A stretch of DNA of 64,000 nt from Candidatus Moanibacter sp. GTDB taxonomy: Bacteria; Verrucomicrobiota; Verrucomicrobiia; Opitutales; UBA2987. Below the pieces are notes generated by a model that saw only the letters and a list, made by a program, of their open reading frames with translations, did no database searches and was not told where the DNA came from. The translations under genes were made by a program, and so were the position numbers. Of the stretch, positions 16,502 to 29,251 are shown in pieces; the stretch's first letter is position 1; each line of letters begins with the position of its first letter. Where the stretch lies: positions 74,104-138,103 of the forward strand of contig CBDDCD010000001.1 of NCBI GenBank assembly GCA_965226025.1, in the 5' to 3' direction.

Positions 16502-17131
16502 CTTGAGGGACGGCGAAATACGCGGCCGGTCGGTGGGTAAGCTCGCTCGGGTAGATGCAACCGTACGTTGGGTTCGTGAGACCGAATCCTCCGCGGGATA
16601 AGATTCCCCCCCTGTCCTCGAGAAATTCTGCGTTTTTCATCTGGTCCCTAGAGAGACGATTGCAGTATGGATGTGCCCACGCGCAATCAGCAGGAGCAGA
16701 CGCCGGCGAATCGATATCGAGCTATATTCCTAGAGGATTAACCTTGATCTGTCGACTCGGGATTTTGCAGGAAATTCGGTTAGCTCAATCCCCGCGCGTC
16801 TGGCTACAGTGATCGACTCCGTGCAGCCCTACGCTTGAATGCAGAGCTTAGCGGAAGTTTGCGCTCCCATCCTGAGGATATTTTCGCCGGAAGAATCCCA
16901 GACATGGCGCAATGCGCGAGCACAAGTAGGATAGTAGTGTCCTTTAGTCCGACTGCCGCATCAGCTATTCCTCTCAGATTCCTCCCGAGTTTGCTGCAGG
17001 ACAATGCCCTTCGTTGCCTCTCCTTGCCACACCCCTAAAATCGATCAGACTCGTTTAAGGAGCTGATTTATAGATACTTGATTGAACAACAAAGACTTAC
17101 ATCAATAAACAGCCTAACGCAGGAGGGCGAT

Positions 17132-17154
17132 TTCGAATCCCGCCCTCTCCGCCA
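17132..17154 (+). other. tRNA-Ser-like 3' fragment (T-loop, acceptor and CCA), not a complete tRNA
   Basis: 'TTCGAATCCCGCCCTCTCCGCCA' is identical to the reverse complement of 27109-27131. No 5' acceptor 'GGAGAGG' lies upstream. Confidence 0.6.
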
Positions 17155-17881
17155 ATTCTCGCCGGAGGCGATAATTGAGCCCGCGCGAAGCGCGCGGAGA
17201 GGAAGGTATGAGCAATGTTTTCGAGTGCGCTGGCTTGACAGCGCTTTTCCCCAGCGAGGCTTGACTCGCCGATCTTGTCCACCCCTTTTCAATCCCAAGA
17301 ATCCAAACCTCATGCCGTCGAAAGGGCCGCGAACCTGGCTTCCTTTTGGTGGGTTCTTTCATGCAATAGAACGAGCGTACCGCAGCCGGAGCAATCAGAA
17401 GACGCGAAGCAACGATAATCAGCTGTTTAGCAAAATGCCTTTCTCGTCTGGCCTCCGCCAGTCTGTCCGCCCTCGTACTGGATGGGCCAGTACGAACCGA
17501 TTGCCGCAAGCGCAGCCGATTCAGGTAGCAATCGAAGCACCAAATTGAGAGGATGGTATGCCACTGACAAGACCCTACTTTTCGTTTCTACACTGTCAGA
17601 AACTCCACCTTCAAAAGACAGATCGCTAATCCGCAGCAACCACGCGAGGATGTTCAATTACCCCGAAGATGCCCCCTACTGCCATCTCCACTGGATCGCC
17701 GAAGCGGAAGGGAATCCTCTCCGGTCGCGTTGGGTCGAATGTTTGCGCGATCTCGAATGGATCAGGTAACGAGAGTTGCTCGAATTCCGAAGCGTGTGCG
17801 GTCACGGAAGGAGGTGGGAAAGAGGTCAGGCTTCCTATTTGGGGCTGGCCTGACGATGTTTATTTCCAAAGCCTGACCCGT

Positions 17882-19283: not shown

Positions 19284-19567
19284 CGTGTAGGGCTGTTTTC
19301 TAAGGCCAACTCTCTTATAGGCAGCGCTGACGCGTCTGCCGTTATGTCACGATAGCAATTTGGCCGCGTTGGGCAAGATTTCTCTCTAACCTCCTCTCAA
19401 CGAGTGGATTGCCTCACACCGGACGGCATGAACCGCGGATTTTTATTGATGCGTCAGCGCTGCCTATTCCGAAGCGTCGACGCTGCCTATCAAATTAATG
19501 AGATGCGCGGACGCATCATTTTATCACTTTGACCTCGCTGATTCTGATTCGCCTTCGGGCTGGCGAG

Positions 19568-19733
19568 TCAAAAGAGTTTGAGTTGGGGGTCTTGGGGGGA
19601 TGTCTTGCGGCGGCGATAGGGGCGGACTAGGCGGTTGGCTTCGGCGAGGAGGTCGACGGTTCTGTCGGTGGCTTCCGGATTTCGGCGGGAGGCGTCGAGA
19701 GCGAAAATGGCTCGCAATTAGGTTTGCGCTCTT
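19568..19733 (-). repeat. inter-cassette module copy R1 (micro-ORF copy with TTG start only)
   Basis: Hand translation gives 'RAIFALDASRRNPEATDRTVDLLAEANRLVRPYRRRKTSPQDPQLKLF*'. Confidence 0.7.
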
Positions 19734-19768
19734 TTGCAGAAGGTTTGGGAGGAGTTGGTTCAGGACTC

Positions 19769-19975
19769 TTAGAAGAGTTCGAGTTGGGGGACTTTGGGGG
19801 AGGGTTTGCGGCGGCGGCGGGGGCGGACGAGGCGGTTGGCGTCTGCTAGGATGTGGACGGTGAGGTCTTTCGCCTCTGGGGGAAGACGAGAGGGATCGAG
19901 GGCGAGTTCGATGGCGTTGCGGATGTGCTTGTGCGCATTGCAATTTGGTATAGGTTTGAGCTGATTAGGGCGCAA
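19769..19975 (-). CDS. module micro-ORF, most intact copy (R2, 68 aa)
   Basis: It has an ATG start. The sequence '...KHIRNAIELALDPSRLPPEAKDLTVHILADANRLVRPRRRRKPSPKVPQLELF*' is homologous to five other copies. Confidence 0.45.
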   Translation of the reverse strand: MRPNQLKPIPNCNAHKHIRNAIELALDPSRLPPEAKDLTVHILADANRLVRPRRRRKPSPKVPQLELF

Positions 19976-21175: not shown

Positions 21176-21246
21176 TTGGACATTTTCGCAGAGGGTTTGA
21201 GCTTTCCTGCGGATCTCGTAACTCGCGCAGACAGAAATCCGGGATG

Positions 21247-21415
21247 CTAAAAGAGCTCGAGTTGGGGGTCTTTCGGGGATTATTTGCGCCGGCGGTGGGG
21301 GCGGACGAGGCGGTTGGCTTCGGCTAGGATGTAGGCGGTTTGATCGGTGGCTTTGGGGGACAGTTTGGATGGATCGAAGGCGAGGTCGATGGCATTGCGG
21401 ATGGCTGGTCTGCGA
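21247..21415 (-). repeat. inter-cassette module copy R3 (micro-ORF with an in-frame TAA)
   Basis: 'AIRNAIDLAFDPSKLSPKATDQTAYILAEANRLVRPHRRRK*SPKDPQLELF*'. The internal stop is at 21280-21282. Confidence 0.7.
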
Positions 21416-21553: not shown

Positions 21554-22075
21554 TTACTCCGCGCCGGCCGACCACCACAAGAGTTTTCTGATGAAATAGT
21601 AATTACCAACGCTAAGAAGACCAAAGCCCAAGAGGAAAGAAAAGGTCGTTAAGTAGCCAATCGGCACCCAAATAAGCCTATCAGTGAAACTTTGTTCACC
21701 ATCCTTAGTACTGAATGTTTTGGGTGGTAGAGCGGTGTTGTAGCTAATCCGGACGTTTCGAAGTCTCAAATATTCGGTATGAAGCAACCACGTTACCGCA
21801 ACACAGAGAGTAAGAGCCACACCTAGTATAAACTCGCCGACATCCTTTAACGGGGCGAAATCGTTAACTTTGAAGTGCGGGGCGACATTCAGCGTGATAA
21901 TCGAAAACCCAAGCCGATACGAACTGCGCCAGTAGTGAGTTTGTCTAAGCTGATATTCGTCAAAAATTAGCCGCGCCAGGTCAGGATCGTAATCTCGGGC
22001 TTCAGGAGACATCAAATTACCTACCACTGCGGCCGTTTGAAGGGAACTCAGCGAAATACAGGCATTCGTCGCCAC
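21554..22075 (-). CDS. hypothetical multi-TM protein (173 aa), cassette cargo
   Basis: The ORF has three or more hydrophobic segments, for example 'FILGVALTLCVAVTWLL' and 'LTTFSFLLGFGLLSVG'. Confidence 0.55.
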   Translation of the reverse strand: MATNACISLSSLQTAAVVGNLMSPEARDYDPDLARLIFDEYQLRQTHYWRSSYRLGFSIITLNVAPHFKVNDFAPLKDVGEFILGVALTLCVAVTWLLHTEYLRLRNVRISYNTALPPKTFSTKDGEQSFTDRLIWVPIGYLTTFSFLLGFGLLSVGNYYFIRKLLWWSAGAE

Positions 22076-22224
22076 CTGATGGAGCTTGGGTAGAATTGAG
22101 CGTCATAACTACAGTGAGATTGCTTATGCGCAATCGATGATCCTAAGAGGTAACACGGTCGGCATTCTGCGTCAAGAAACTGATCTCTGTATTTTATGCG
22201 TAGGCGATTGCCTACACCGGAGGC

Positions 22225-22395
22225 TCAAAAGAGTTCGAGTTGGGGGTCTTTGGGGGAGGTTTTGCGGCGGCCGTGGGGGCGGACGAGGCGGTTGGCTTCG
22301 GCGAGGATGTAGACGGTTTGATCGGTGGCCTCCTTGATTCGGCGGGAGTCGTCGAGGGCGAGATCGATGGCGTAGAATCTCGCACTTAGGTTTGG
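22225..22395 (-). repeat. inter-cassette module copy R4 (micro-ORF without canonical start)
   Basis: '...YAIDLALDDSRRIKEATDQTVYILAEANRLVRPHGRRKTSPKDPQLELF*'. The frame opens after a TAA with no ATG, GTG or TTG. Confidence 0.7.
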
Positions 22396-22560
22396 GCATT
22401 GGCGAATCAGCGCGATTTAGGGCGGAAGTACACGGATATCAACGACTTAGGTATCAGTCAAAAGTGAAATACGAGTTTGCGCACTTCTTGGGTCAGATCG
22501 GGGTGTTTGCAATTGGTTTGAGCACTGAGAAATGCGAGTTTGCAGTTAGGTTTGGGTACT
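22396..22560 (-). promoter_or_regulatory. upstream half of module with box repeats
   Basis: Boxes lie at 22503-22523 and 22536-22556. The block 'GGATATCAACGACTTAGG' is also present. Confidence 0.4.
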
Positions 22561-22685
22561 CAACAAGACAGAGGTGACCGGGTTGGCGGACCAACGGAGT
22601 TGACGCTGACGCACAGATAATCGTAAACGAAGGAAACGACATTGAAAGACGGAAAAGCGAGTCAACCCCTGTTCACCGTTTTGTT

Positions 22686-24146
22686 TCAGGAAAGGTGCGT
22701 TGTCGGAGGTGATTCTCTTGCAGAGTTGTCGGTTGCAAGTGCTTTGACCACCCTTTCGAGCTCGCGATCGAATAGGTCGCCGTTGTCTTTCCAACCATTG
22801 AAATCTGCTGCGAGGCGGGATGTTACTTGCATTGCCTTACCACTCTTCCATTGGCCGGAAAGCAAGAATCCGTCGAGGTCAAGGGGAATGAGTGCTAGCA
22901 CTTTTCTGCCGCGTTCTTTCATGAGTTTCTGTTCCTTCTTAAACGCGGCATCGATCTCATTATCAACCCACCAACTGGTCAGAGAATATTCTGATGCACA
23001 CAGAAGGATCTTGTCCCACAGCCGAATCCCGCGATCCACTTGGTCGTAAATGTCATCACCGGGTAACATTTGTTTTTCGTCTAGCCAGCACCGAATGCCG
23101 CGGCCCTGTAGCGCATCATGTAGCCGCCGTGCGAACGACTTGTCTTCATGGCTGTAACTAATGAAGCACGAATAGAACTCTAGAGCGTGGCCTGTTAACG
23201 AAGGGAGGTATGTGATGAGATTGTCCGTGATCCCGCAGCCGCGAAGAAAGTGATCAGGGATCTTACCTCTAGAACGAGTCAGTGTATCAACATCAATACT
23301 ACTCGGTCCAGAATGCACGATCGTGTCCAACCCTTTGACGGTCGAGAGGTCGATTCCACTTAATCTCACCTTCTCGAATTGAGCCTTGTCGAGTTGCACA
23401 TCGGTCATCACAGTGTTCTCAAGTTGTGCATGGGACAGGTTCGCGTTCGTTAGGTCTGCGCCCGACAGATCAGCGCCGATGCAAATACATGACAAATCCG
23501 CCCAAATGACATGCTGCGAGAGGTTTGCACATTCAAGGTCCGCATCAGTGAGGTTGGCGTTGCGAAGTTTAGCGCCAGATAACATGCTCCACCCCAAATC
23601 GGTATCGGTTAGCTCCGCCTCGGTGAAATCAACGAGCTGTAAGAAAGCACCCCTCAAATTCGCACCGCGTAGATTCGCCTCTCGAAATGACGCCCATTTC
23701 AGAATCGCCCCTGCAATGTTGCAGTAACTCAAGCTCGCCTTGGTGAGGTCCGTTCCGATAATGTTCCTCCTTCCTTCGGAATTCAGGATTTCATCCGCAT
23801 CTAGGTTAACCGTTCTTAGGTCGCATTGACTAAGATCCGCGCCACACATTATTGCCCCGCGCAGATCGAGGCCACGCAGGTCAATGTCGGTGAGGTCGGC
23901 TCCTGTCAAATCAAGACGAACATGTGAATCCTCGACACGCCGGGCTGCATTTTCGGTACGCCATTTCGTAACGGCTCCACAACCTCTCCGTAAGAGCGTG
24001 ACGTGCTCGGGATTTGCCATTGGTGTTGGCAGCTTCGTTCGCTGCGTTCGGCTGAATGTTGTGCGTATTTCAAGACACAACTCAAGATAGATTGCGTTTA
24101 CGCGATGGCTGTCTTGGAAAACAGCACTATCGCGAGCCACGGTCAA
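22686..24146 (-). CDS. pentapeptide-repeat protein fused to a C-terminal TIR domain (486 aa)
   Basis: There is a long run of A(D/N)LxG-type pentapeptides. The TIR-like region is 'FISYSHEDKSFARRLHDALQGRGIRCWLDEKQMLPGD...SWWVDNEI'. Confidence 0.8.
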   Translation of the reverse strand: MTVARDSAVFQDSHRVNAIYLELCLEIRTTFSRTQRTKLPTPMANPEHVTLLRRGCGAVTKWRTENAARRVEDSHVRLDLTGADLTDIDLRGLDLRGAIMCGADLSQCDLRTVNLDADEILNSEGRRNIIGTDLTKASLSYCNIAGAILKWASFREANLRGANLRGAFLQLVDFTEAELTDTDLGWSMLSGAKLRNANLTDADLECANLSQHVIWADLSCICIGADLSGADLTNANLSHAQLENTVMTDVQLDKAQFEKVRLSGIDLSTVKGLDTIVHSGPSSIDVDTLTRSRGKIPDHFLRGCGITDNLITYLPSLTGHALEFYSCFISYSHEDKSFARRLHDALQGRGIRCWLDEKQMLPGDDIYDQVDRGIRLWDKILLCASEYSLTSWWVDNEIDAAFKKEQKLMKERGRKVLALIPLDLDGFLLSGQWKSGKAMQVTSRLAADFNGWKDNGDLFDRELERVVKALATDNSARESPPTTHLS

Positions 24147-24189
24147 GAAGCCTCGCTATCTGATTCAAATACAAGGGATTGTGTAACTA

Positions 24190-24250
24190 GCATTCAGGTT
24201 TGCAAACTTTCGCAGAAGCGGAATTTGCAATTAGGTTTGGGCATTCAGTT
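24190..24250 (-). promoter_or_regulatory. partial module (box repeats only) between the DUF4062 and TIR genes
   Basis: 'AATTTGCAATTAGGTTTGGGC' at 24222-24242 and 'CAGGTTTGCAAAC' at 24196-24212. Confidence 0.4.
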
Positions 24251-24423
24251 GGGGAAAAGGGCCAGGATCGGTATGAATGGATTGTGAGAGTGATTGATCT
24301 CTGCATTTCTGGGATTGACGTTAGGATTGGGATGGTAGTGGATGAAGCTAGATACTTTCGCTTGGAGGAACTACTCCGTTTGCGGTAGAATCGCTTCAGA
24401 AGATATACTCGAAGTCTAACAGC

Positions 24424-25326
24424 TCACCAGGTTGATCCCTGTGGGTTGGAATCTCCCAAGGCCGCGGTCTTAACTTTCTCGGATTCAAGCTTGTTAAAGA
24501 AGATACGGCCCGCATCCGAGATAGTGTATTGAGAAGGACCTGTCCTGCTGAGCAGGCCGAGCCTGTAAAGCTGATCAGTTTCAGATCGGGCAAAACGGCC
24601 AGAACCTCTGTCGAAAAGTTGATCTCGATTTTCTTCCATCCATTCGAGCAGACCTTTATCGATCACGATATCCCTTAGTTCAGCGAAAGTGAGCCCATTA
24701 AGTAGCGTGTCTTGCCTACCACTTTCAACCTGGCTTCGTAGCAGGGAGTTCTCGCGACTCAGCCGGGTGATCTCATCGGTTACTGCAGGCATGTTCACCT
24801 GTGTCGAGGATCGTACCCAGCCTTCGAGATCTTCGCGACGAGAGAATTCACCGAGGGTCTGATGTATCGACAGCTGGATATCCTTCTCATCGTTCCAAAA
24901 TCCCACTGTCTTTTTTTGAACCAGATCTCGAAACTCTGCGAGTTTATCAGCTTCTTCGGTCTCCCTGGCTTCGGGTCCCAGACGGCGAACTTTCTCATCA
25001 AGCGCTGGCTGCTCGATCACACAGGAAAACAGAGCCAATCCTTTTTCCAAAGCGTATTTATACTCCACTTCTATGTAGCTTCTGCCTGTTTTCGGGTCGA
25101 TACTACCGTATCGACCTGCCAGGATCAGGAGGAACACGTCTGATTGGTTGATCCACTGCTTTATGACCTCCATCTGCGACTCATCGCCAGCTGCAAAAAG
25201 CTCCATACCAGCGGGAATGTGTCCAGCCGACAAGATTGCCTCGACTCCCGCCTGCCTTTCCACTTTTAGATCGGTGTACGTTGAGGAGACAAATACCTGC
25301 AGGCGTTTTTTAAGGAAGTCGACCAT
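24424..25326 (-). CDS. DUF4062 (TIR-like) domain protein with a helical/wHTH-like C-terminus (300 aa)
   Basis: The N-terminus 'VFVSSTYTDLKVERQAGVEAILSAGHIPAGMELF' matches the DUF4062 signature. Confidence 0.7.
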   Translation of the reverse strand: MVDFLKKRLQVFVSSTYTDLKVERQAGVEAILSAGHIPAGMELFAAGDESQMEVIKQWINQSDVFLLILAGRYGSIDPKTGRSYIEVEYKYALEKGLALFSCVIEQPALDEKVRRLGPEARETEEADKLAEFRDLVQKKTVGFWNDEKDIQLSIHQTLGEFSRREDLEGWVRSSTQVNMPAVTDEITRLSRENSLLRSQVESGRQDTLLNGLTFAELRDIVIDKGLLEWMEENRDQLFDRGSGRFARSETDQLYRLGLLSRTGPSQYTISDAGRIFFNKLESEKVKTAALGDSNPQGSTW

Positions 25327-25405
25327 AGGACGATTGTCGGAATTTCCCCCTTCCTTTCAAGGGAGTCAATCTACTTAGAGATCGTCGCGAATGAGCTTTG
25401 ATTCT

Positions 25406-25575
25406 TCAGCTGCCGAAAAGTTCCAGCTGCGAGATTTGTGTCATCTTGCGGCGGCGGGGGGGGGGCGGACGAGGCGGTTGGCTTCGGCGAGGATGTAGAC
25501 GGTTTGATCCGTGGCTTCCTTGATTCGGCGAGATGCGTCGAGAGCGAGGTCGATGGCGTTGCGGATGTGCTTCAT
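25406..25575 (-). pseudogene. inter-cassette module copy R5: micro-ORF with ATG, out of frame at a C10/G10 tract
   Basis: 'MKHIRNAIDLALDASRRIKEATDQTVYILAEANRLVRPPP' runs into the homopolymer. The conserved tail 'RRRKMTQISQLELFGS*' is in the +1 frame. Confidence 0.5.
25456..25465. repeat. G10 (C10 on coding strand) homopolymer inside micro-ORF copy R5
   Basis: Counted directly: 'gcggcggcGGGGGGGGGGcggac'. Confidence 0.9.
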
Positions 25576-25745
25576 GAGCCTTGCAAAGAAGCTTGAGCAT
25601 TCGCGAATTAGGACGGAATAGAGCGGAAGTCAGCGAATAGCAACGGGTTAGGGGACTCATGGGGTGAGAGATCGAGTTTGAGCACTTTGGGGCTATATTT
25701 TAGGGGGTTTGCACATGGTTTGAGCACTTTTCGAGTTATTGCAAG
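25576..25745 (-). promoter_or_regulatory. upstream half of module with box repeats
   Basis: 'GGTTTGCACATGGTTTGAGC' at 25706-25725, 'CGAGTTTGAGC' and 'AGCAACGGGTTAGG'. Confidence 0.4.
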
Positions 25746-25774
25746 GAGTCCGATAGACAGTTTCTGGACGATTG

Positions 25775-26200
25775 CTAACCAACCGGTTGGTTATCTTTCG
25801 CTCTAGGAGTTTCAGAACGAGGTGGGGCGGCGGCCGCACTGTCTTCAGCCTCTTGTACGTCAATTCTCTGCCGGATTGCTCTCACCACCTCAGCGATCGG
25901 TGTGCGCGTCCGCCACCAGGAGATTAAGAGATATACGCCCATCAGATTCCCAACCACGGAGACGACTATACACAAATTCTCAGCGATCTGACTCCGAAAG
26001 GTTGCCGTACACAGGGCCAATATACTTGAGAACGCCATTGTCAGCAGAAAGACCGCGAAATTCAGCTGGATTGATGCGGGGGACCCTTTCTCAAGCAGGT
26101 CCAGTTCGTTTTCCTTGACTTCAAAAAGGTCGACGGATGCGACTCGACCTCGTCGCACTTGGAGAGGCTTGCTATCCGTTGGGTGTGAGGGAGAACTCAT
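25775..26200 (-). CDS. hypothetical 2-TM protein (141 aa), cassette cargo
   Basis: TM segments are 'FAVFLLTMAFSSILALC' and 'LCIVVSVVGNLMGVYLLISWW'. Its start lies 1 nt after the stop of the upstream ORF. Confidence 0.55.
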   Translation of the reverse strand: MSSPSHPTDSKPLQVRRGRVASVDLFEVKENELDLLEKGSPASIQLNFAVFLLTMAFSSILALCTATFRSQIAENLCIVVSVVGNLMGVYLLISWWRTRTPIAEVVRAIRQRIDVQEAEDSAAAAPPRSETPRAKDNQPVG

Positions 26201-26471: not shown

Positions 26472-26745
26472 CGCGATTCCTTTCCTATAGCTGTCAACAT
26501 GGAAATCTCGTCATTTGGAGAGGGTTGGTCGAGCAGGTCTTCGATGCTCTTCAGGCATAGAAGTGGCTTTCTTGCAGCATTTCAAGGGTCTTTGAGGAGT
26601 TTCTATGGTAAAGAGCCTGAGAGTCCAAATGAGATCCTCAGCATCGACTTTCCTGCACACTTTCTTGTCCTTTTACGCGTAGCTTTGTCGTCGCACTTCA
26701 AAGATGGGCAGTCGCGAGCGAATCCGTCGGGCGAGGAAAGTGAGC

Positions 26746-26830
26746 TTAGAATAGCTCGAGTTGGAGGTCTTTGGGGATTGTTTGCGGGGGCGGTGGGGTC
26801 GGATGAGGCGGTTGGCTTCGGCTAGGAGTT
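26746..26830 (-). repeat. truncated and frameshifted module copy R6 (3' ~85 bp only)
   Basis: 'LAEANRLIRPHRPRK', then a frame change, then 'QTIPKDLQLELF*'. Confidence 0.6.
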
Positions 26831-27108
26831 ACACGGTCGAGTCTAACGCTCATCGAATGGAAAATTTGGAACTTGGGTATTTGTGGGACCACTGAAGCTC
26901 GGAAAATTTGGGACAGAGGGCGCGTTTCCCATGTTTCTTTTTCTACGCTTTCTCCAATATCAGGAGAATCTAAGAGCTCCTTTCCGTCATCCTCAATACT
27001 CCGCGCCATCGGCGATTCTCGTCACATTTATTCTTACCGCCATTCTGAAACGGTCTACCTGCCGATCATAAAAGTATGTAAACATTTGAATAGAAATGTC
27101 TGACAAAA

Positions 27109-27136
27109 TGGCGGAGAGGGCGGGATTCGAACCCGC
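27109..27136 (-). other. tRNA-Ser-like 3' fragment (complete T-arm, acceptor, CCA), not a complete tRNA
   Basis: The reverse complement is 'GCGGGTTCGAATCCCGCCCTCTCCGCCA'. No matching 5' acceptor or foldable anticodon arm lies in the next 100 nt. Confidence 0.6.
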
Positions 27137-29174: not shown

Positions 29175-29251
29175 TGGTCGGGCTGGAGAGATTCGAACTC
29201 TCGACCCCTTGCACCCCATGCAAGTGCGCTTCCAGGCTGCGCCACAGCCCG
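29175..29251 (-). tRNA. tRNA-Pro (anticodon GGG), 77 nt with encoded CCA
   Basis: The reverse complement folds by hand. Acceptor CGGGCTG/CAGCCCG, D stem GCGC/GCGC, anticodon stem CTTGC/GCAAG with loop ATGGGGT, T stem GAGAG/CTCTC with loop TTCGAAT. Confidence 0.9.

What the first reader, a model, noticed from the sequence alone, without database searches (positions are those of the whole stretch)
22686..25326. DUF4062 protein and pentapeptide-repeat-TIR fusion as an adjacent pair: candidate NAD-targeting defence module
The 300-aa DUF4062 (TIR-like fold) protein lies upstream. A 486-aa protein lies downstream, in which about 300 aa of pentapeptide repeats precede a TIR domain ('FISYSHEDKSF...SWWVDNEI', with a candidate catalytic Glu). 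The two genes are separated only by a partial module (boxes, no micro-ORF), so they may form one cassette or operon.

Bacterial TIR domains are NADases or signal generators in Thoeris, CBASS-like and other immune systems. Here there is no ThsA/SIR2/SLOG partner. A pentapeptide beta-helix (a DNA mimic or sensor?) fused to TIR is not a described system as far as I know.
Basis: partly seen in the sequence, partly recalled or inferred. Interest (0 to 1): 0.6.

Follow-up and report, generated by a model that had tools for sequence, protein, structure and literature searches.

The report
Two separate NAD-cleaving defence genes, not a pair
Two neighbouring genes each look like a self-contained one-protein anti-virus system that would destroy the cell's NAD+; one belongs to a family described in 2026, the other to a large untested family, and they are neighbours only because both sit in a variable gene-cassette array.

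Summary
Both genes are real and intact. The upstream 300-aa protein is a full-length relative of Swarozyc/Evangelion, the single-gene DUF4062 NADase phage-defence systems described in 2026 preprints. Its family profile matches the solved KpSwz structure (E 2.5e-36), and Glu88 aligns with the catalytic E97.

The downstream protein is 444 aa, not 486; every homologue starts at MANPEH. It has a helical cap, about 200 aa of pentapeptide beta-helix, a conserved 50-aa linker and a TIR domain. Its invariant Glu355 aligns with the catalytic Glu of AbTIR and PdTIR.

- None of 80 pentapeptide-TIR loci holds a DUF4062 gene.
- Only 2 of 80 DUF4062 loci hold any TIR or pentapeptide sequence, and neither repeats this pair.
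- Of 400 other genomes sampled from the phylum, none has both.
- Neither family has a conserved neighbour.

A 403-nt spacer separates the genes and carries two of the array's repeat boxes, so they are adjacent independent cassettes.

The pentapeptide-TIR family is large (1,184 clusters at E <= 1e-30). I found no paper that characterises it, so it remains a reasonable untested candidate for single-gene defence.

This scan has already noted Swarozyc-type genes and pentapeptide-TIR fusions on other genomes.

The parts
24424..25326 (-). Gene for a 300-aa DUF4062 protein of the Swarozyc/Evangelion type, a single-protein TIR-like NADase
   Evidence: Pfam PF13271, E 9.8e-28. About 55% identical full-length homologues occur in many phyla. 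The family profile hits PDB 10wc_A (KpSwz) at E 2.5e-36.
24838..25299 (-). TIR-like catalytic core of the DUF4062 protein (residues 10-163)
   Evidence: AF2 model at pLDDT about 90, with alternating beta-alpha elements. Best Foldseek PDB matches are TIR domains (RPS4, SARM1, SPARTA) and DNPH1/NDT.
25063..25065 (-). Codon of Glu88, the predicted catalytic residue of the DUF4062 domain
   Evidence: Invariant in 29 homologues. It aligns with the Ala of the E97A mutant chain of KpSwz. It matches the E-Y motif reported for Evangelion.
24721..24792 (-). Stalk helix (residues 179-202, 'ITRLSRENSLLRSQ')
   Evidence: AF2 helix 179-202. The motif is conserved in the family and lies within the stretch aligned to KpSwz.
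24427..24714 (-). C-terminal auxiliary (presumed sensor) domain, residues 205-300, variable across the family
   Evidence: AF2 predicts a small helical domain with a beta-hairpin, winged-helix-like. Conservation is low. There is no significant PDB sequence match on its own.
24021..24423 (-). 403-nt spacer between the two genes. Positions 24021-24146 are the false 5' extension of the ORF.
   Evidence: Homologues fix the start at 24020. Promoter- and terminator-like sites in 22000-26000 are no more frequent than chance.
24194..24245 (-). Two repeat boxes ('CCCAAACCTAATTGCAAA' and 'CTTCTGCGAAAGTTTGCAAACCTGA') shared with the array's other inter-cassette modules
   Evidence: Repeat families D5 and D12. 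Short-word blastn of the spacer against the other modules finds only these two boxes.
22686..24020 (-). Gene for a 444-aa pentapeptide-repeat/TIR protein (stop codon included)
   Evidence: Pfam Pentapeptide and TIR_2. Full-length homologues at about 50% identity all start M-A/P-N, mostly MANPEH.
23337..23942 (-). Pentapeptide-repeat beta-helix (residues 27-228), the variable presumed sensor part
   Evidence: AF2 shows a regular one-strand-per-5-residue solenoid. Foldseek and HMM hits are to HetL, MfpA, Qnr and synthetic solenoids. Length varies about 160-330 aa among homologues, with 42% mean identity.
23184..23336 (-). Conserved linker (residues 229-279, 'GLDTIVHSGPSSIDVDTL...FLRGCGI')
   Evidence: 62% mean pairwise identity with many invariant residues. 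It always travels with the TIR domain in the family.
22731..23183 (-). TIR domain (residues 280-430)
   Evidence: TIR_2, E 1.4e-21. PDB sequence hits are AbTIR 8g83 (2.2e-7), PdTIR 3h16 and a TIR-STING. Mean identity is 77% among homologues from several phyla.
22956..22958 (-).
   Evidence: Invariant. It aligns with the Glu of AbTIR 'WTNYELD' and PdTIR 'WPQKELD'. The Trp four residues before it is also kept.

Best explanation
The two genes are two independent single-protein defence units that lie side by side in a horizontally acquired, variable cassette array (about 17.1-27.1 kb of the window).

Gene 1 (DUF4062) is a Swarozyc/Evangelion-type protein with three parts:
- an N-terminal TIR-like NADase core with catalytic Glu88;
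- a helical stalk that holds the enzyme as an autoinhibited oligomer;
- a variable C-terminal sensor domain.
By analogy with KpSwz, the sensor binds a phage structure, which realigns the stalks and switches on NAD+ hydrolysis. The infected cell then dies or arrests before the phage matures.

Gene 2 (pentapeptide-TIR) most likely works on the same logic with different parts:
- The variable-length pentapeptide beta-helix is the sensor or scaffold.
- The conserved linker transmits the signal.
- Trigger-induced clustering brings the TIR domains together so that Glu355 cleaves NAD+.

Shown here: domain identities, catalytic residues, family sizes, and the lack of any conserved partner or of co-occurrence.
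Inferred: NADase activity, phage triggering, abortive infection, and the sensor role of the pentapeptide helix.
For: DUF4062 gene:
- Pfam hit.
- The family profile matches solved KpSwz at E 2.5e-36 over positions 6-205, with Glu88 on the E97(A) position.
- The AF2 model shows a TIR-like core, a stalk helix and a small C-terminal domain.
- Foldseek finds TIR and NDT folds.
- Single-gene NADase defence is shown experimentally for relatives.
- There is no recurrent neighbour in 80 loci.

Pentapeptide-TIR gene:
- TIR_2 and Pentapeptide domains.
- Glu355 and Trp351 align with the AbTIR and PdTIR NADase residues.
- The TIR part is 77% conserved against 42% for a pentapeptide part of variable length.
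- There are 1,184 clusters at 50% identity with E <= 1e-30, nearly all with the linker-TIR unit at the C-terminus.
- There is no conserved neighbour. 8 of 80 loci carry tandem TIR paralogues, and scattered neighbours are defence-type (PDC-M41/M30, GajB-like, methylases, integrases).

Independence of the two genes:
- 0 of 80 pentapeptide-TIR loci hold DUF4062.
- 2 of 80 DUF4062 loci hold any TIR or pentapeptide sequence, and neither is this pair.
- In the phylum sample, 11 of 401 genomes have DUF4062 and 2 of 401 have pentapeptide-TIR. Only this genome has both.
- Both genes are single-copy here, and none of the 8 family relatives has a close homologue of either (only weak partial-domain matches).
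- The spacer carries the array's inter-cassette boxes.
- The array has lower GC than the rest of the window (0.51 against 0.54).
Against: - Nothing here is experimental for these two proteins.
- The DUF4062 C-terminal domain has no significant sequence match to the KpSwz sensor domain, so the trigger is unknown.
- I found no paper showing that a pentapeptide-TIR protein defends against phage.
- PADLOC models match only its TIR part.
No terminator is predicted in the spacer. Co-transcription therefore cannot be excluded.
- One DUF4062 protein elsewhere is fused to pentapeptide repeats (L069), and one is followed by a TIR-SIR2 gene (L087). Some functional affinity between these domain types is therefore possible.
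Confidence: 0.75

Rival explanations
1. The two genes form one cooperative two-gene NAD-targeting system. One protein would sense or produce a signal, and the other would amplify NAD+ destruction.
For: - The genes are adjacent and co-oriented, with no predicted terminator between them.
- Both have TIR-type folds.
- A DUF4062-pentapeptide fusion exists in L069, and a DUF4062 gene next to TIR-SIR2 exists in L087.
- 8 of 80 pentapeptide-TIR loci carry a second TIR gene.
Against: - The pair was not found in any of 160 related loci or in 400 other genomes sampled from the phylum.
- DUF4062 relatives work as single genes.
- The 403-nt spacer carries the array's inter-cassette boxes.
- The L069 fusion is the only protein with both domains among the best 120 hits of its search.
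Confidence: 0.07
2. The pentapeptide-TIR protein is a signal generator of the Thoeris ThsB type. It would make a cyclic ADP-ribose isomer that activates an effector encoded elsewhere, rather than depleting NAD+ itself.
For: - The Trp four residues before the catalytic Glu is kept. From my own knowledge, unchecked here, this position is linked to cyclic product formation in AbTIR.
- There are weak partial hits to ThsB models.
- A SIR2_2 gene exists elsewhere in the genome.
Against: - No ThsA, SLOG, Macro or SIR2 gene recurs next to family members in 80 loci.
- The genome's SIR2_2 gene is on another contig.
- ThsB model matches cover only part of the TIR domain at modest scores.
Confidence: 0.1
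3. The pentapeptide-TIR protein is not an anti-phage gene. It could be an effector aimed at eukaryotic cells, like TIR virulence factors and pentapeptide type III effectors. It could instead be a DNA-mimic regulator of topoisomerases with a TIR domain used only for protein contacts.
For: - The pentapeptide part resembles PipB/PipB2, Qnr and MfpA models, far below their cut-offs.
- One source names a homologue 'secreted effector'.
- No defence phenotype has been published.
Against: - The catalytic Glu is invariant and the TIR domain is under strong constraint.
- Homologues occur in free-living soil, water and sediment bacteria of many phyla.
- No secretion system or signal was seen nearby.
- The distribution is patchy and accessory, and the gene lies in a cassette array next to a defence gene.
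Confidence: 0.08

Closest known systems
Swarozyc (KpSwz, Klebsiella pneumoniae; PDB 10wc/11cq/11cv; Osinski et al., bioRxiv 10.64898/2026.05.01.722283)
   Same: - It has a DUF4062 TIR-like core with the catalytic Glu at the same alignment position.
- The conserved motifs (SST, IPAGMELF, GGRYG) are present.
- A helical stalk follows the core, then a C-terminal domain of about 100 aa.
- It is a single gene without a fixed partner, with patchy horizontal distribution.
   Different: The C-terminal sensor domain has no significant sequence similarity to the portal-binding winged-helix domain of KpSwz. The trigger may therefore differ. No activity data exist for this protein.
Evangelion (Eva01-Eva04; Ibarra-Chavez et al., bioRxiv 10.64898/2026.06.25.731849)
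   Same: It is a single-gene system with a DUF4062 core plus a diversified auxiliary region. The Phe near the N-terminus and the E-Y catalytic motif are kept: F12 and E88-Y89 here, against F11 and E87-Y88 in Eva01.
   Different: Evangelion lineages are described mainly from plasmids and other mobile elements of staphylococci and enterobacteria. I could not place this protein in their tree. By sequence it is close to the Swarozyc structure.
Bacterial TIR NADases AbTIR (PDB 8g83, 7uwg) and PdTIR (3h16)
   Same: The TIR fold matches at sequence level, with the catalytic Glu and the preceding Trp aligned.
   Different: Those proteins carry coiled-coil or other N-terminal parts. Here the TIR domain sits behind a pentapeptide beta-helix and a family-specific 50-aa linker. 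NADase activity is untested.
Thoeris (ThsB TIR sensor plus ThsA effector)
   Same: A TIR domain gives weak ThsB-model similarity.
   Different: There is no ThsA-type gene next to this gene or next to 80 relatives. The ThsB matches are partial.
Pentapeptide-repeat proteins MfpA, Qnr, AlbG and HetL
   Same: The same right-handed quadrilateral beta-helix is predicted.
   Different: Those are stand-alone helices of about 180-240 aa that act on gyrase or in cell differentiation. None carries a TIR domain. Scores are far below the family cut-offs.

Membership tests
Swarozyc/Evangelion (single-gene DUF4062 NADase defence) | DUF4062 (PF13271) TIR-like domain | tested here: met
   96.6 bits against a cut-off of 24.7. 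TIR/NDT fold by Foldseek.
Swarozyc/Evangelion (single-gene DUF4062 NADase defence) | Catalytic Glu (E97 of KpSwz; E87-Y88 of Eva01) | tested here: met
   Glu88-Tyr89 is invariant. Glu88 aligns with the mutated E97A position of chain 10wc_A.
Swarozyc/Evangelion (single-gene DUF4062 NADase defence) | Helical stalk after the core | tested here: met
   AF2 helix 179-202, inside the region aligned to KpSwz.
Swarozyc/Evangelion (single-gene DUF4062 NADase defence) | C-terminal auxiliary sensor domain (HTH/winged-helix in KpSwz) | tested here: inconclusive
   A domain of the right size and helix/hairpin content is predicted. The profile match to the KpSwz AUX is 1.9 bits, and the domain alone finds nothing.
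Swarozyc/Evangelion (single-gene DUF4062 NADase defence) | Acts alone, with no conserved partner gene | tested here: met
   The largest recurrent neighbour cluster is in 4 of 79 loci.
Swarozyc/Evangelion (single-gene DUF4062 NADase defence) | Phage-triggered NAD+ hydrolysis and abortive infection | not testable with these tools
   Needs expression, phage challenge and an NAD+ assay.
Catalytic bacterial TIR NADases | TIR domain above the curated cut-off | tested here: met
   TIR_2 scores 77.7 bits against a cut-off of 28.
Catalytic bacterial TIR NADases | Catalytic Glu in the 'W-x-x-x-E' helix | tested here: met
   Glu355 aligns with the Glu of AbTIR and PdTIR and is invariant in the family.
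Catalytic bacterial TIR NADases | NAD+ cleavage on oligomerisation | not testable with these tools
   A biochemical assay is needed.
Thoeris | ThsB TIR gene adjacent to a ThsA effector (SIR2, Macro or TM with SLOG) | tested here: not met
   There is no such gene in the window around the pair or among 150 neighbours of relatives. The SIR2_2 gene is on another contig.
PADLOC candidate PDC-S66 | Full-length match to the model | tested here: not met
   Only profile positions 147-232 of 282 match, which is the TIR part.
   0 of 80 and 2 of 80 loci, neither of the two being the same pair. None of the 400 other genomes sampled has both.

The most novel reading that the evidence does not exclude
The pentapeptide-TIR family would be an undescribed, widespread single-gene abortive-infection system. 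In it, a DNA-mimicking pentapeptide beta-helix of rapidly varying length acts as bait for phage DNA-binding proteins. Capture of the bait would cluster the highly conserved linker-TIR unit into an active NADase.
Probability: 0.35. Interest if true: 0.6.

Novelty: new member of a known kind. Interest (0 to 1): 0.3.

Why it matters
The result removes a false two-gene system from the list and assigns the DUF4062 gene to a defence family that was only recognised in 2026. It also singles out the pentapeptide-TIR family as a cheap, well-defined candidate for testing. The family is large (over a thousand 50%-identity clusters), has a very conserved TIR effector behind a variable repeat helix, and has no partner gene. 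If it defends against phage, it would show that pentapeptide helices can serve as immune sensors. The locus further shows that the repeat-module cassette array in this genome carries defence-type cargo.

Tried and rejected
- Third DUF4062 preprint (10.64898/2026.09.04.749371, NIR domain and TEP1): it was listed but could not be opened. Only its title and the start of its abstract were used.
- Last large protein search, with the L069 DUF4062-pentapeptide fusion: it was swamped by pentapeptide-only proteins. Only the query itself carried both domains among the best 120. It shows rarity at best.
- Foldseek against the PDB for the DUF4062 model: the library stops in April 2026 and lacks KpSwz, so it gave only generic TIR and NDT folds. 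The sequence-profile search supplied the KpSwz match instead.
- Foldseek for the pentapeptide-TIR model: it was dominated by beta-helix hits and said nothing about the TIR part.
- Phage and plasmid collections: no phage carries the full architecture, and one plasmid (Skermanella rosea) has the linker-TIR unit.
- Promoter and terminator scan of 22-26 kb: no more sites than chance.
- Rfam: nothing in the spacer.
- Thoeris, PDC-S66 and SAVED-TIR assignments were considered and rejected because only the TIR part matches.
Full report
**Observation**

The ORF list shows both genes on the minus strand: 24424..25326 (300 aa) and 22686..24146 (486 aa from a TTG).
- Pfam assigns DUF4062 to residues 10-92 of the first protein (E 9.8e-28).
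- Pfam assigns Pentapeptide (E 1.8e-40) plus TIR_2 (E 1.4e-21) to the second.
- PADLOC has no model for the first and only partial, TIR-only matches for the second (PDC-S66, SAVED-TIR, ThsB).
- NCBIfam names neither protein.

Aligning the second protein with 28 full-length homologues shows that every one begins M-A/P-N, mostly MANPEH. The real start is therefore the ATG at 24020, and the protein is 444 aa. The gap between the genes is then 403 nt.

**The DUF4062 gene**

Thousands of homologues exist, and the best are about 55% identical over the whole length. They come from Verrucomicrobiota, Planctomycetota, Bacteroidota, Proteobacteria, Firmicutes, Cyanobacteria, Chloroflexi and an archaeon.

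The first 200 residues are very conserved, with many invariant positions including Phe12 and Glu88-Tyr89. The last 100 residues vary.

A literature search found three 2026 preprints.
- Osinski et al. show that DUF4062 is a TIR-like NADase and that single DUF4062 proteins (Swarozyc, KpSwz) defend E. coli against phages by abortive infection. The catalytic residue is Glu97. A helical stalk holds an autoinhibited oligomer. A winged-helix C-terminal domain binds the phage portal.
- Ibarra-Chavez et al. describe Evangelion, single-gene systems with a DUF4062 core and a diversified auxiliary region.
- The third preprint (NIR domain and TEP1) could be seen only as a title and the start of its abstract.

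The family profile matches the solved KpSwz chain 10wc_A at E 2.5e-36 over positions 6-205. Glu88 of the window protein falls on the Ala of the E97A mutant used for the structure.

The AlphaFold model (pLDDT 83) shows a beta-alpha core, a long helix at 179-202 and a small helical domain with a hairpin. Foldseek finds TIR domains and DNPH1/NDT.

The C-terminal domain has no significant match to the KpSwz sensor. The trigger of this protein is therefore unknown.

**The pentapeptide-TIR gene**

The best 120 homologues all carry Pentapeptide plus TIR_2 and are about 50% identical. The family has five parts:
- a conserved 26-aa cap;
- a pentapeptide helix whose length varies from about 160 to 330 aa, with 42% mean identity;
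- a conserved 50-aa linker (62% identity);
- a TIR domain with 77% mean identity across phyla;
- a short conserved tail.

The linker-TIR unit alone finds 1,184 representatives of 50%-identity clusters at E <= 1e-30. Almost all have the match at the C-terminus of proteins of 200-720 aa.

The TIR part matches AbTIR (8g83, E 2.2e-7), PdTIR (3h16) and a TIR-STING. The invariant Glu355 lies on their catalytic Glu, and Trp351 on the Trp four residues earlier.

The AlphaFold model (pLDDT 80) gives a regular solenoid followed by helices and a TIR fold.

I found no paper that characterises a stand-alone pentapeptide-TIR protein. Pentapeptide repeats are mentioned only as superstructure-forming sensor or scaffold modules in conflict systems.

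The full architecture is absent from 50,697 phage records. It is present as a linker-TIR unit on one plasmid.

**Is it a pair?**

I fetched 80 genome loci with DUF4062 relatives and 80 metagenome loci with pentapeptide-TIR relatives, each with up to 10 kb of flank.
- No pentapeptide-TIR locus contains a DUF4062 gene.
- Two DUF4062 loci contain TIR or pentapeptide sequence, and neither repeats this pair.
  - In L087 a TIR-SIR2 gene follows the DUF4062 gene.
  - In L069 the DUF4062 core and stalk are fused to C-terminal pentapeptide repeats in one 531-aa protein.
- Clustering the two nearest genes on each side shows no recurrent partner for either family.
- Among 150 neighbours of pentapeptide-TIR genes, the commonest families are further pentapeptide and TIR proteins. 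After those come a few defence-type or mobility genes (DUF5131/PDC-M41, PDC-M30, GajB-like, methylases, integrases).
- Eight of 80 pentapeptide-TIR loci carry two to four TIR genes in tandem.

Genome-level counts agree.
- In a 401-genome sample of the phylum, 11 genomes have a DUF4062 relative and 2 have the linker-TIR unit. Only this genome has both.
- Both genes are single-copy here. None of the eight genomes of the same family holds a close homologue; only weak partial-domain matches appear.
- The genome holds one other TIR_2 gene and a SIR2_2 gene, both on another contig.

**Local context**

The pair lies inside an array of minus-strand cassettes separated by a repeated module. Other findings of this scan describe that array.

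The 403-nt spacer shares only two boxes (24194-24245) with the other modules, and the rest is unique. By the array's own grammar the two genes are therefore separate cassettes.

GC content of the array is 0.51 against 0.54 for the rest of the window.

Promoter and terminator scans are uninformative, and transcript data could not be obtained. Co-transcription is therefore not excluded, but nothing argues for it.

**Mechanism**

For the DUF4062 protein I adopt the Swarozyc mechanism. Sensor binding to a phage component realigns the stalks, releases autoinhibition and activates NAD+ hydrolysis at Glu88. The domain identities and the catalytic residue are shown here. The activity and the trigger are inferred.

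For the pentapeptide-TIR protein I propose the same sensor-effector logic. The variable beta-helix would be the sensor or clustering scaffold, and the linker-TIR unit the NADase. This rests on four observations:
- the invariant catalytic Glu;
- the contrast between a constrained effector and a variable repeat part;
- the lack of any partner gene;
- the accessory, horizontally spread distribution.
It remains untested.

**Verdict**

The defence and NAD reading is reasonable for each gene. The proposed two-gene module is not supported.
- The DUF4062 gene is a new member of a family described in 2026.
- The pentapeptide-TIR gene belongs to a large uncharacterised family that deserves a direct test.

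The scan has already reported Swarozyc-type genes and pentapeptide-TIR fusions on other genomes. I had found the Swarozyc papers independently before reading those notes.

Noticed in passing
L069:10001-11596: In a Thermoanaerobaculia MAG, a DUF4062 core and stalk are fused to about 300 aa of C-terminal pentapeptide repeats in one 531-aa protein. Here a pentapeptide helix takes the place of the usual sensor domain. It was the only such fusion among the best 120 hits of its search.
   Followed up: partly
L087:10004-12552: In a Polyangiaceae MAG, a 309-aa DUF4062 gene is followed 225 nt downstream by a 464-aa protein. That protein has an N-terminal TIR domain and, as I read its sequence (no domain search was run), a SIR2-like C-terminal part.
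   Followed up: no
L117:10724-15361; L130:10604-13292: Tandem arrays of three or four co-oriented TIR genes follow a pentapeptide-TIR gene. The extra copies are only about 34% identical in the TIR part. 8 of 80 loci have at least two copies.
   Followed up: partly
window 17127-17157 and 27106-27136: 31-nt inverted arms (90% complementary) that look like tRNA 3' ends bracket the cassette array. An intact tRNA-Pro(GGG) lies at 29175-29251.
   Followed up: no
window 19560-19920, 21240-21400, 22219-22400, 25405-25660, 26745-26850: The repeat module between cassettes contains a short reading frame ending '...QLELF' in several copies. It is absent from the spacer between the two genes studied here.
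   Followed up: no
own genome, contig 2, 605121-605387: The only other TIR_2 match in the genome lies in a 465-aa open frame that contains one in-frame TAG. It may be a broken gene.
   Followed up: no
L133:10078-11664; L160:4603-6195; L159:5261-5983: DUF5131 genes, and in two loci their upstream partner gene (matching PADLOC candidates PDC-M41/M30), sit next to pentapeptide-TIR genes in three metagenome loci.
   Followed up: no
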